Source of the DNA: Rhynchobatus australiae | Taxonomy: Eukaryota | Assembly (NCBI GenBank): GCA_034780895.1 | Contig: JAUZTB010000017.1 | Coordinates: 27,235,877 to 27,299,770, forward strand | Length of the DNA stretch: 63,894 nucleotides | Direction of reading: 5' to 3' | Shown: positions 39,901-44,400 of the stretch, one piece after another | How the letters are laid out: every line of letters starts with the position of its first letter | Numbering within the stretch: position 1 is the first letter of the stretch | Position numbers: made by a program

Positions 39901-41463
39901 AAAAATAAGCCCTCTTTGCTGAGAAATTGGCTCACTGTTGCTTGCATGAAACATGGAAGTGTGATAGTTTGTGCATCTTTTACTTGGCTTTTGAAATTTT
40001 GTTCCATTGAATTCACTGAAACTAAACTTCAGATGCAGGGTNNNNNNNNNNNNNNNNNNNNNNNNNNNNNNNNNNNNNNNNNNNNNNNNNNNNNNNNNNN
40101 NNNNNNNNNNNNNNNNNNNNNNNNNNNNNNNNNNNNNNNNNNNNNNNNNNNNNNNNNNNNNNNNNNNNNNNNNNNNNNNNNNNNNNNNNNNNNNNNNNNN
40201 NNNNNNNNNNNNNNNNNNNNNNNNAGGGCATTGGACCCTCAGTGTTTTCATCAATGCTTGATACTGCCTCATTCTGGTCACACAAGAGCATGAAGACAAC
40301 AACTGATGGATTTTGACCTGAATCTCATCTGAATTTCATTTCTCTTTTATCATAAATGCTGAGGCCAGCTGTTGCCTTCTCAATCATCAGTGCCTAACTG
40401 AACAGCTTCCAACAATTTAACCTAAAAATTGTTAATCCCCAGGTTGTAATCCCACATCATGCAACATATTTATTCAGGTTTAAAAGGATAAGTTCTTGGA
40501 AGTTGTGACTAGATGTTAATTTTGTTAATATTTATTAATCATGTTTGTCATTTTAATGTGTCCCAGACGTATTCCACAATATGAAGTGCCTCTCTTTACA
40601 ACTCCCTTACATTAGTTCAAGGAAGGCTAAACTCTTTAGTTGAAACTCCTTTGAAGTGAAGAGCTCAACTTCAATTTCTACCAGTAGTCCTTGATTAGCT
40701 TCTGTTTATTTGATTGGAAGTGCTGAGATAAGTTTGGAGAGCTGAGGAATAAAATTGTGTGCAGAAACAGGGGCAGATGTAAGGCAAGTATGGGATCAAA
40801 GGAGGAATTTTGGAGAATCCAGTATTGGTAGAGAACTCCACAAATGAAGTCTGTTTTAGTTTCTAATTACCACTCTGCCAATGTGTTTGGAATCTATGGG
40901 ATTCTAGTCCTTTCTTGTCAAATTGCTTTGAAGATTGTTATGGACTAGGACTATTAGTGAGCGTCCCTTTTTGATAATGTGTGTGTGTGAGCGTGTGTGT
41001 GGCGTGTTTACGCCAACAGAAGATAAAGAACGTCATGACGCTGTTGTTGAAACAACAAGTCGGAGTCAGTCTGAAGGAGAGAGAGAGACAAGAACGAGAG
41101 AGAGAGAGAGGGAGACACCAGCCTGCTTGTTTTCTTTATCGATGGATGAGCAACAATAACTGTGACTGTCACTGCAATCCACGTATGAATTGTTAAGAGT
41201 AATCCGGTGGAGTTCACTTTGTTGGTAACCTGTGGAAGAAAACAGGTAGTTGGTGTGGACGGCCACGGCACGNNNNNNNNNNNNNNNNNNNNNNNNNNNN
41301 NNNNNNNNNNNNNNNNNNNNNNNNNNNNNNNNNNNNNNNNNNNNNNNNNNNNNNNNNNNNNNNNNNNNNNNNCTTCAGACTGACTCCGACTGGTTGTTTC
41401 AACAACAGCGTCATGATGTTCTTTATCTTCTGTTGACGTAAGCACGCCACACGCACACACACG

Positions 41464-41494
<31 letters not shown>

Positions 41495-44400
41495 TATCTA
41501 AAAGGGACACTCACTAATAGTCCTCGTCCGTAACAAGATGGATGAACAGCCTTATAACATTCAAATAGTCTTTCAGTCAGTGATCAGTGTTAGTGAAATT
41601 TGAACAAATGCTCCACATTTTGAGCAAGTTTTTGGCCATATGCTTGTTAAGTTATTTTGAATAGTTGATGGAACATACAGCAGTTAATCTGGTAAATGTT
41701 AGTGTCATTCACTGATTCATAAAAGTGAATTTAGCAAAGTATATTTTGAGTAGTTGGAGCGTCATAGCAGGAATGTGTATTTGTACATTGGCCCAGGATA
41801 TAAAATTGATAAATCCATTACATATTTCATGCAGCACATTCCCATACCAATTTTAAATTTTTAAACCTACCCGTACGTCTTTAGATCCATGTTAATTTCT
41901 CAGATACCATGTGTGCCCAGTGGTTGTCCCTATTGCTTTTGATTGTCAGAGAAAGCCAAAGAGGAATGATCCCAGTTGGTTTGTCTTTTCAGCTGGCTTT
42001 CTTCCAGGTATTTTTCATTTCTCATAGTTCATGACATGGATGTGGAGTGGAAAGGTAGGCTGAGTCAGCACTGAGGTGTCTAGTCATGAAATGTTTTCAC
42101 TCTGAGGAGCAAAGCATTTCACAAGTAGATGTGATGTTTAATAAAGGGATATAAAATGAGAATATTTTCTGCATATGTCCTCCACATTCTAGTTGTGACA
42201 TTATTGAGAAAGAAAGTTATTTGATTCTTGTGACATTGAGCCAGAAGTTCACAAACATCTGTAGCTGCTCTAGGACTTATATCAGGGGATTGCAAGCATC
42301 TAAGCAAAATTGAATTTCCTCTTTATACCAATTGCTCTTTGGAGTGCTTGAGTAGTGGTCTTAAGAGGACAGTTTGGCAATTTAACATTGGGAGATTAGT
42401 GTCAGTATTCTTTCTTACTCTTAGATGGTCCCTTGAGAACAAGGGTGACTTACTTCCATTCCAGTTCTGTGGGTTCTGAGGTGACAAATGAGGCCAATGT
42501 AGGAAGCACCAACTCTTCCACAGATGGGACAACCCATCTTGGGATGGGTTGGTGGGTAGTTTGTGAGGTGGTGCGTTTCCTACTGCTATTGACAATGGGC
42601 TTCTGTGTGTTCAATGCATGGAGTTGAGATTCTCCATACCATCTTGAATGCTTCTTCTTCGTGTTTAGCAGTCATGTATTCTCAGGAATTGGTGGAGATA
42701 TTACAGGTGTTCAGGGCTCTTTGACAATGTCCTTGCATTTTTTTCTCTTTTCACACTTGGATGAAACTTGTATCAATAATTCATAAACCAATGTAAATCC
42801 TGTTTGATGTTGTCACAGTTATTTGTTAATTGCTTTCAATCATTAAAGAGGAGCTCTCACATTAGTAACCCTTTGCAAAATAAACACCAATAAATGCAAA
42901 GTATCAGCAGTTTCATCATCTTTAGTTCTGTCTTCATGTGATTATTTTAATTTGAACTCTAAACACTGATGACCTAGTAACTTGAAAAGGCCACCAAATC
43001 TGCTTTTGTGAGGGAGTTATGAGTTCAGGAAAATGCTATAATTATAAGACCTTAGCTGAATCATAAACTGTCGTAATGCAGCTGCCAGTATGTAATTATC
43101 AAATTATCTGCCTGATCCCATTTTGCATTCAGCCCAATCTTTATGAAGTGCTGCTGTTTCAGGTTTGACCTTCCACACAATGTCTCCATTGCTGGGATTC
43201 ATTCTCAGATTGTTGCCCTTCCAAGTGATGTGCAGCATTTTCCTTGCACTGCAGGTTTTATAAATATTCAGCCTTTGCATCAGTGCTTTTCTCATGATGA
43301 ATAGCAATAATGCTTTTAATGCAAATACCTCATACTTTCTGGCATTGTAGCTATTCCCTGTTTCGCTGATGTTGCAAATGTTTATCATGCAACCGAAGGC
43401 ATGTCTGTTCAGAAATGCCAAACAAGTTAATCCCGTTTGTAATCCTCATTCTTTAAGAGTGTGACATTTTCCAACAATTGTTCTTACTATAATAATATCT
43501 TGCGTTAATCCTAAAGTAGACAATAGTAAATTCTGCAATCCTATGCATTTGTAAGGGGAGAGAGAATGATTAAAAAAATCTTTTACAGTCTTTTACCACA
43601 TATACACCTTCCAATATTTTGCTGGTGCTTGATAATGTTCATGGATATTGATGTTTCCATGGAGTTCCAAGAGCTGATTATTCCCTGCTGTGCATGTGAC
43701 AAATAATACCATGAGGATGTGATGAAGCAGTTGAACAGGCAAGGAAGAATTTATTTATTCAGGCACAAGGAAGATTGTAGATCCTGTTTCATTTCTTTTG
43801 AGCAGAAATATAACTCGTTCTTGTGCTTCGAAGATGGTGGAAAGACACTGGGGTGTCAGGTGGTGGATACTTAGCCCACTTTAATCTACCCCTGGAATTC
43901 TGTCCTTCGATCCATTTTTTAACCAAAGCTGTAATGAGGTCTGAAGCCAAGTAGAAACCCAAGCTGGGCATCTGGGAGCAGCATATTAGTGAGTCTGGTT
44001 TGAAGCCACAGTGATTATGTGGGTGTCCAGTTGAGCTTCTGGTCACTGGTAAGGATGTTATTGATGGAGGACTTTTCTATCACTTCCTCTTGTTGAAGAT
44101 AGTCATTGACACTTTTGTACAGTGTATGTTACTTGCCATTTATCAGCCCATATCTGAAGGTTGTGGAGGTCTTGCCACATGCAGGCATGGTCAGTTTCAT
44201 TTACTGAGGAGTTGCAAATTGAACTGAACGTTGTGAAGTCATCAGTAAACATTGCCCCCTCTGAACTAATGATGCAAAAAAGGTCTTTAATGAAGCAGAT
44301 GCCGATATTTAGGCCCAGGATACCACCCTGAGCAACTGATGGCCTGGAGTTGGGATAATTGATCTTAAATAACCACTGTCATCTTCCTTTGGGCAATGCA

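What the first reader, a model, noticed from the sequence alone, without database searches (positions are those of the whole stretch)
40932..41539. TG...CA element with long inverted ends and a 4-bp TSD: Ginger-like transposon or inverted-LTR insertion
Seen: both ends are the same sequence of at least 140 bp in opposite orientation. Termini are TGTTA/TAACA and agat is duplicated on both flanks. The arms differ by about 9 substitutions and in (TG)n length, so they are not one sequence assembled twice. Established: TG...CA ends with 4-bp TSDs are the signature of Gypsy-type integrases, but LTRs are direct repeats. Ginger DNA transposons combine Gypsy-like integrases with long TGT-starting TIRs and 4-bp TSDs. 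The left arm continues into LTR-looking sequence with microsatellites. Inference: a Ginger-type element, or an aberrant integration using two identical LTR ends. The interior is hidden by a 100-N gap of unknown true size.
[Added by the scan's program, not by the reader: the finding's places include an assembly gap (unread letters, written N; its length is only estimated) at 41273 to 41372. Whether the letters on both sides are continuous or in frame is not known: test that first.]
Basis: partly seen in the sequence, partly recalled or inferred. Interest (0 to 1): 0.65.

Follow-up and report, generated by a model that had tools for sequence, protein, structure and literature searches.

The report
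Old inverted-repeat transposon insertion, gap inside
This is a real, decayed mobile-element insertion with long inverted ends and a 4-base target duplication. Its ends look like the work of a retrovirus-type integrase, but its family cannot be settled because its middle lies in an assembly gap.

Summary
A 141-bp left arm (40936-41076) and a 163-bp right arm (41373-41535) are inverted copies: 130 matches, 11 substitutions and a 22-bp (TG)n length difference. The ends read TGTTA...TAACA, and AGAT flanks both. The chance of a 4-mer match is 0.005. The element is CpG-rich (o/e about 1.1) in CpG-poor flanks (0.06 and 0.19), and the change falls at the proposed ends. Only 1 of 15 gaps in the window has such an inverted repeat across it.

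The right arm starts at the first base after the gap, exactly where the left arm enters a (GA)n run. The arms may therefore be longer, and the 100-N length is nominal.

The best reading is one insertion event by a DDE integrase-type enzyme, Ginger-like. Ginger1's near-obligate CCGG/CCGT target is not met, and Ginger2's RTATAY preference is not matched (PMC2836005). No integrase, RT, hammerhead or DIRS-type internal complement is visible.

No eukaryotic DNA collection was available, so copy number, partner orientation and family TSDs stay untested. The finding is ordinary to mildly interesting, and the superfamily is unproven.

The parts
40932..40935 (.). left copy of the 4-bp target-site duplication AGAT
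   Evidence: sequence; match probability 0.0051
40936..41076 (+). left inverted arm, 141 bp, begins TGTTA; holds (TG)n at 40978-41001/41007 and a GGACTA tandem pair near the tip
   Evidence: CpG o/e 1.12, GC 45%
41077..41272 (+). visible interior next to the left arm (196 bp), starting with (GA)n 41077-41115; may be arm sequence whose partner is hidden in the gap
   Evidence: no Pfam domain; no significant fold (z -0.74); no complement of the arm tips
41273..41372 (.). assembly gap, 100 N, true size unknown; left unfilled
   Evidence: one of four gaps of exactly 100 N among 15 N runs
41373..41535 (-). right inverted arm, 163 bp, ends TAACA; holds (CA)n at 41448-41494; begins at the first base after the gap
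   Evidence: CpG o/e 1.07, GC 47%
41536..41539 (.). right copy of the 4-bp target-site duplication AGAT

Best explanation
This is one old insertion of a mobile element bounded by long terminal inverted repeats. Shown: arms of at least 141 bp in opposite orientation, ends TGTTA...TAACA, AGAT duplicated on both flanks, and a jump in composition at those ends. Inferred: a DDE enzyme of the retroviral-integrase type bound the two identical ends and exposed the 3' CA ends. It joined them to the target with a 4-base stagger, and repair of the stagger produced the AGAT duplication. The copy then decayed: about 8% of arm positions now differ, and nearly half of those differences lie at CpG sites. The closest described kind is a Ginger-type cut-and-paste transposon, nearer in target to Ginger2 than to Ginger1. 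This copy is probably non-autonomous or dead. The superfamily is not proven, because the interior lies in the gap and no other copies could be examined.
For: The inverted repeat has E 5e-41, with 130 matches, 11 substitutions and a 22-column microsatellite indel. The 8% divergence means the arms are two distinct sequences, not one sequence assembled twice. The TGTTA/TAACA ends fit the TGTNR pattern that PMC2836005 gives for Ginger1, Ginger2 and Gypsy. The 4-bp direct repeat abuts both ends, with chance 0.0051. Arm length lies within the published 40-270 bp (Ginger1) and 50-180 bp (Ginger2) ranges. CpG o/e is 1.12 and 1.07 in the arms against 0.06 and 0.19 in the 500-bp flanks, and GC is 45-47% against 35-36%. 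The proposed ends therefore coincide with a real boundary. Only 1 of 15 gaps in the window has a strong inverted repeat across it, which argues against a systematic assembler artefact.
Against: AGAT is not CCGG or CCGT/ACGG, which make up 99% of Ginger1 duplications. The 6-bp site AAGATG does not fit Ginger2's RTATAY. No integrase or transposase domain was found in 137 ORFs of 74 aa or more across the window, nor in 113 ORFs of 35-73 aa in 37.5-47.5 kb. There is no second copy of the arm in the window. The 24-nt arm probe had 0 hits in genome contigs, a collection of bacteria and archaea only. [quoted passage not shown] A single 4-bp match is modest evidence on its own.
Confidence: 0.45

Rival explanations
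1. A cut-and-paste transposon of another superfamily that also makes 4-bp duplications (Sola2 or Academ, for example), whose TGT...ACA ends are coincidental.
For: Sola2 families have 4-bp AT-rich duplications such as AWWT, ATAT and AAAT (PMC3627910, passages), and AGAT is 75% A+T. MuDR-type elements are reported with 4-10 bp duplications and PHIS elements with up to 4 bp (PMC10045372, passages).
Against: The Sola2 families described there have short inverted ends of 12-21 bp, not 141 bp or more. TGTNR at both ends would occur by chance about once in a hundred (my estimate from base composition). That Academ makes 3-4 bp duplications is recalled; the paper I asked for was not held.
Confidence: 0.15
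2. A retroelement that naturally carries inverted terminal copies. One candidate is a Penelope-like insertion with an inverted 5'-truncated copy, so that both outer ends are 3' ends. The other is a DIRS1-like element with inverted terminal repeats. In either case the TGT/ACA ends are coincidental, and for DIRS the AGAT match is too.
For: Penelope-like insertions often have an inverted 5'-truncated copy that forms inverted repeats around the unit. [quoted passage not shown] DIRS1-like repeats span 66-316 bp (PMC3266345, passages). The break in the assembly sits in the middle of the structure.
Against: No hammerhead ribozyme or other notable Rfam match was found (0 at gathering scores over the whole window; 7 weak unrelated matches at E up to 10 in 40000-42500). 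No RT, GIY-YIG or recombinase domain is visible. DIRS1-like elements begin and end with the same NTT trinucleotide, make no duplication and carry an extension at one end. Here the ends are TGT/ACA, the direct repeat abuts both arms, and no complement of the arm tips lies in the visible interior (165 to 300 of 300 shuffles score as high). No 30-40-bp tail is seen at either end.
Confidence: 0.12
3. Two separate copies of one repeat family that happen to lie head to head, or were brought together by scaffolding across the gap, with AGAT matching by chance.
For: Contigs tend to end in repeats. The gap is one of four 100-N gaps of nominal size. The contig to its left is 1048 bp and the one to its right 3188 bp, and the orientation of small contigs can be uncertain (general knowledge).
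Against: The 4-mer match at exactly the two outer ends has probability 0.0051. Flipping the right contig would put the repeat end away from any matching flank. Only 1 of 15 gaps shows this pattern. Both flanks share the same low GC and low CpG.
Confidence: 0.1
4. An LTR-derived unit: two copies of the same LTR end in opposite orientation, integrated as one piece by a retroelement integrase.
For: TG...CA ends and a 4-bp duplication are the marks of Gypsy/ERV-type integrases. PMC2836005 proposes that Ginger1's inverted ends arose from two LTRs in opposite orientation. The arms are CpG-rich and carry a near-palindromic ACGTCATGACGC motif. Reading that motif as enhancer-like is my inference.
Against: LTRs are direct repeats by definition. 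Neither strand of the 337 visible bases has AATAAA, ATTAAA or TATAAA. No gag, RT or integrase fragments lie nearby. A full-text search for 'inverted LTRs' together with 'target site duplication' and 'retrotransposon' found 0 papers. A primer-binding site could not be tested, because no tRNA sequence came from any tool (0 tRNAs in the window).
Confidence: 0.06

Closest known systems
Ginger2/TDD DNA transposons (Bao, Kapitonov, Jurka 2010, PMC2836005)
   Same: Inverted ends of about 50-180 bp, 4-bp duplication, TGTNR termini. The arms here are at least 141 bp with the same end pattern and duplication length.
   Different: The preferred target RTATAY is not matched (AAGATG). No transposase is visible. 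Ginger2 was reported as seemingly absent from vertebrates in 2012 (PMC3575427). The arms may exceed 180 bp.
Ginger1 DNA transposons (PMC2836005)
   Same: Inverted ends of 40-270 bp, 4-bp duplication, TGTNR termini. Relics are reported in alligator, turtle, coelacanth and frog (PMC9004415, passages).
   Different: 99% of Ginger1 duplications are CCGG or CCGT/ACGG, and here it is AGAT. No Gypsy-like integrase with an OTU or Ulp1 domain is visible.
Gypsy/ERV-type LTR retroelements
   Same: TG...CA ends and a 4-bp duplication.
   Different: The repeats are inverted, not direct. No LTR signals, gag or pol are visible.
Penelope-like elements with an inverted 5'-truncated copy (PMC8557442)
   Same: Inverted repeats around the unit, a flanking duplication, and a break in a short-read assembly.
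   Different: No hammerhead motif, no RT or GIY-YIG, no terminal tail. The TGT/ACA ends would be unexplained.
DIRS1-like retrotransposons (PMC3266345)
   Same: Inverted terminal repeats within the 66-316 bp range.
   Different: DIRS elements have NTT...NTT ends, no duplication, an extension at one end and an internal complementary region. None of these is seen here.

Membership tests
Ginger1 | terminal inverted repeats of about 40-270 bp | tested here: met
   arms 141 and 163 bp, possibly longer; range from PMC2836005
Ginger1 | 4-bp duplication that is CCGG (75%) or CCGT/ACGG (24%) | tested here: not met
   length of 4 bp met, but the sequence is AGAT against the preference
Ginger1 | TGTNR termini | tested here: met
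   TGTTA / TAACA
Ginger1 | Gypsy-like integrase transposase (YPYY, zinc finger, DDE, GPY/F) with an OTU or Ulp1 domain | not testable with these tools
   interior lies in the 100-N gap; no domain in visible ORFs
Ginger2/TDD | inverted ends of about 50-180 bp, 4-bp (or 5-bp) duplication, TGTNR termini | tested here: met
   arm length is a lower bound because the right arm runs into the gap
Ginger2/TDD | preference for the AT-rich 6-bp target RTATAY | tested here: not met
   the site reads AAGATG; this is a preference, not a rule
Ginger2/TDD | transposase with H2C2 zinc finger and DDE domain | not testable with these tools
   interior hidden; no eukaryotic DNA collection available to find family members
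LTR retrotransposon / ERV | long terminal repeats in direct orientation | tested here: not met
   arms are inverted
LTR retrotransposon / ERV | TG...CA ends and a 4-6 bp duplication | tested here: met
   lengths
LTR retrotransposon / ERV | primer-binding site, polypurine tract, gag-pol | tested here: inconclusive
   no gag or pol domain visible; two CA...TGG spots in the interior could not be compared with a tRNA because no tool supplied one
DIRS1-like | begins and ends with the same NTT trinucleotide; no target duplication | tested here: not met
   ends TGT/ACA with flanking AGAT against PMC3266345
DIRS1-like | internal complementary region matching the outer ends of the repeats | tested here: inconclusive
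   none in the 196 visible interior bases; the rest is hidden
Penelope-like element | hammerhead ribozyme in the pseudo-LTR; RT plus GIY-YIG nuclease | tested here: not met
   no hammerhead and no domain in the visible part; some clades lack the ribozyme and the interior is hidden
Any transposon family | several copies sharing the same ends, each with its own duplication | not testable with these tools

The most novel reading that the evidence does not exclude
The arms are genuine LTRs of a Gypsy/ERV-type family of this genome, and the unit moved as one piece with both identical LTR ends facing outward. It would then be a living example, in a vertebrate-like genome, of the LTR-to-inverted-repeat step that Bao et al. 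(PMC2836005) proposed for the origin of Ginger1. A less bold variant is a Ginger2-type family in a vertebrate, where Ginger2 was reported as seemingly absent (PMC3575427). I put that variant at about 0.2.
Probability: 0.05. Interest if true: 0.75.

Novelty: new member of a known kind. Interest (0 to 1): 0.3.

Why it matters
If the arms belong to a Ginger-type family, this would add to the thin record of integrase-related DNA transposons in vertebrate-like genomes. That record currently rests mainly on domesticated genes (GIN1, GIN2) and protein relics. If the arms are LTRs, the element would bear on how such transposons arose from retroelements. As it stands, it is one decayed copy of unknown family. 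Its practical value is as a marker for a family worth a census, and as a case where a long inverted repeat coincides with a break in a short-read assembly.

Tried and rejected
1. Other copies of the arm in the window. BLAST with word size 9 and nhmmer found only the partner arm and microsatellite noise.

2. Paralogous empty site. The flanks, searched separately against the window, gave nothing useful.

3. Protein domains. 137 ORFs of 74 aa or more across the window gave only PF09004 at 45054-45335(-) and three sub-threshold hits. 113 ORFs of 35-73 aa in 37.5-47.5 kb gave only sub-threshold hits. ORFs of 52-73 aa outside 37.5-47.5 kb (204 listed) were not scanned.

4. RNA families. There were 0 matches at gathering scores and only weak unrelated matches near the element. 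The window has 0 tRNAs.

5. Hairpin in the visible interior. The fold z-score is -0.74, and a weak self-inverted nhmmer match has E 0.12. Neither is significant.

6. DIRS-type internal complement. None was found.

7. A TA duplication (Tc1/mariner) or an 8-bp duplication (hAT). Rejected on reading the flanks.

8. Systematic artefact at gaps. Rejected, since only 1 of 15 gaps shows it.

9. One sequence assembled twice. Rejected, since the arms differ at 11 of 141 aligned positions.

10. Host lineage. The Atlas look-alike search for the PF09004 ORF gave no usable taxon. I do not take the window for human: it has 15 gaps, few repeat pairs within 64 kb and a PF09004-bearing ORF. This was not proven.

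11. Supplementary tables of the papers were closed. Family-level end and duplication tables in them could bear on the Ginger and DIRS tests.

Full report
**What is there**

The window is 63,894 bp with 41% GC and a CpG observed/expected ratio of 0.21. It has 15 runs of N, four of them exactly 100 N. It therefore looks like a draft assembly of a heavily methylated, vertebrate-like genome. I do not take it for human. The 64 kb contain few repeat pairs, and the only clear protein-domain hit is PF09004 on a short ORF. The species was not determined.

At the finding's coordinates the sequence reads ...GAAGAT|TGTTATGG... on the left and ...CCGTAACA|AGATGG... on the right. The repeat finder reports two inverted pairs, 97 nt at 92% and 66 nt at 89%, separated only by a dinucleotide run. 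BLAST joins them into one match with E 5e-41.

In the MAFFT alignment, counted, the left arm (40936-41076) and the right arm (41373-41535) share 130 identical columns. They differ by 11 substitutions and by 22 gap columns. Seven of the substitutions are transitions and five lie in a CpG context. All the gap columns lie in the (TG)n/(CA)n run. Arms that differ at about 8% of positions cannot be one sequence assembled twice.

**The gap**

The right arm begins at the first base after the gap. That is the very column where the left arm runs into (GA)n at 41077-41115. The letters on the two sides are therefore not continuous. The repeat may extend into the gap, and the assembly may have broken at a microsatellite.

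If the right arm mirrors the 196 visible interior bases, the true gap is longer than its nominal 100 N. I did not fill it or look it up. Among the 15 gaps of the window, only this one has a strong inverted repeat across it; one other has an 18-nt match at E 4e-4. This is not a systematic assembler artefact.

**Is it more than chance?**

- The inverted repeat is far beyond chance (E 5e-41).
- Two random 4-mers of this window match with probability 0.0051.
- By my estimate from base composition, TGTNR at an end occurs about once in a hundred.
- The arms have CpG o/e of 1.12 and 1.07 at 45-47% GC. The 500-bp flanks have 0.06 and 0.19 at 35-36% GC.

So the proposed ends coincide with a real change of sequence type. 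Together these results support a single inserted unit with a 4-bp target duplication.

**What it is not, as far as can be seen**

- No second copy of the arm lies in the window.
- Neither flank matches elsewhere in a way that would give an empty site.
- No retroelement or transposase domain was found in 137 ORFs of 74 aa or more across the window.
- None was found in 113 ORFs of 35-73 aa within 37.5-47.5 kb.
- Rfam gives nothing at gathering scores.
- Around the element Rfam gives only weak, unrelated matches and no hammerhead ribozyme.
- The visible interior has no AATAAA, ATTAAA or TATAAA on either strand.
- It has no significant fold.
- It has no stretch complementary to the arm tips.

**Comparison with known kinds**

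I saw passages, not whole texts, of the papers cited here.

*Ginger.* Bao et al. 2010 (PMC2836005) describe both groups.
- Ginger1 has inverted ends of 40-270 bp, TGTNR termini and 4-bp duplications. The duplications are CCGG in 75% and CCGT/ACGG in 24% of cases.
- Ginger2 has ends of 50-180 bp, 4-bp duplications and TGTNR termini, with a preference for RTATAY.

This element meets the length, end-pattern and duplication-length features of both. It fails Ginger1's target sequence and does not match Ginger2's preference. Llorens et al. 2012 (PMC3575427) found no Ginger2 transposon in vertebrates. Frith 2022 (PMC9004415) reports Ginger1 relics in alligator, turtle, coelacanth and frog.

*DIRS1-like elements* (PMC3266345) have inverted repeats of 66-316 bp. 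They begin and end with the same NTT, make no duplication and carry an extension at one end. These features are not seen here.

*Penelope-like elements* (PMC8557442) often carry an inverted 5'-truncated copy that creates inverted repeats and breaks short-read assemblies. Their duplications vary in length. This fits the layout, but not the TGT/ACA ends or the lack of a hammerhead.

*Sola2* makes AT-rich 4-bp duplications, but the families described have short ends (PMC3627910).

**Most likely mechanism**

The most likely mechanism is one insertion by a DDE enzyme of the retroviral-integrase type acting on two identical inverted ends, with a 4-base staggered attack on the target, followed by decay. 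The ends, the duplication and the boundary are shown. The enzyme and the superfamily are inferred.

My probabilities are:

| Reading | Probability |
|---|---|
| Ginger-like element | about 0.45 |
| Another 4-bp-duplicating transposon superfamily | 0.15 |
| Penelope-like or DIRS-like retroelement | 0.12 |
| Two unrelated copies or a scaffolding join, with a chance AGAT match | 0.10 |
| LTR-derived inverted unit | 0.06 |
| Something else | the remainder |

**Limits**

- No eukaryotic DNA collection or repeat library was available. The one scan I ran, a 24-nt arm probe against bacterial and archaeal genomes, found nothing, as expected.
- The metagenome and viral collections and the papers' supplements were closed.
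- Copy number, partner orientation, family-wide duplications, the interior and the orthologous empty site therefore all remain unchecked.
- The claim that inverted LTR pairs with a duplication are not in print rests on one full-text search with 0 hits, which is weak.

**Verdict**

This is an ordinary to mildly interesting decayed transposon copy of unproven family.

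Noticed in passing
window 45054-45335 (-), inside the 1143-bp contig 44661-45803 between two 100-N gaps: A 94-aa open frame matches Pfam PF09004 (ALKBH8_N) at E 3.8e-16, above the gathering score. I recall this domain turning up at the tail of non-LTR retrotransposon ORF2 proteins, so this may be a LINE fragment. No RT domain was seen beside it.
   Followed up: partly
window 15935-16156; related pieces at 17617-17710 and 21996-22077: A 222-bp self-complementary repeat with two nested inverted pairs (40 nt at 88%, 47 nt at 87%). Partial copies lie elsewhere in the window. It looks like a foldback-type short interspersed or miniature element family.
   Followed up: partly
window 5742-5832, 28823-28982, 34288-34356: Three further short hairpin-like inverted repeats (36 nt at 92%, 34 nt at 85%, 31 nt at 90%). 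Their ends and duplications were not examined.
   Followed up: no
window 4768-4936 and 6145-6313; 46025-46203 and 47716-47895: Two pairs of direct repeats (169 bp at 91% and 180 bp at 83%) of unknown family. The first pair sits beside the 100-N gap at 4532-4631.
   Followed up: no
window 34128-35677: A C-rich stretch (GC 52%, GC skew -0.24 to -0.35) with overlapping open frames on both strands. The longest, 248 codons, translates to a proline/serine/leucine-rich low-complexity string with no Pfam match. It is probably not coding. Two gaps lie inside it.
   Followed up: partly
window 21845-22168 (+): A weak Pfam match to TT_ORF2-like (E 0.0029, 18 bits against a cut-off of 24.3). It is below threshold and most likely chance. 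I found no other virus-like protein signal in the ORFs scanned.
   Followed up: no
window 9001-10000 and 32001-33000: Strong local C-over-G skew (-0.41 and -0.33), which suggests simple or low-complexity sequence.
   Followed up: no
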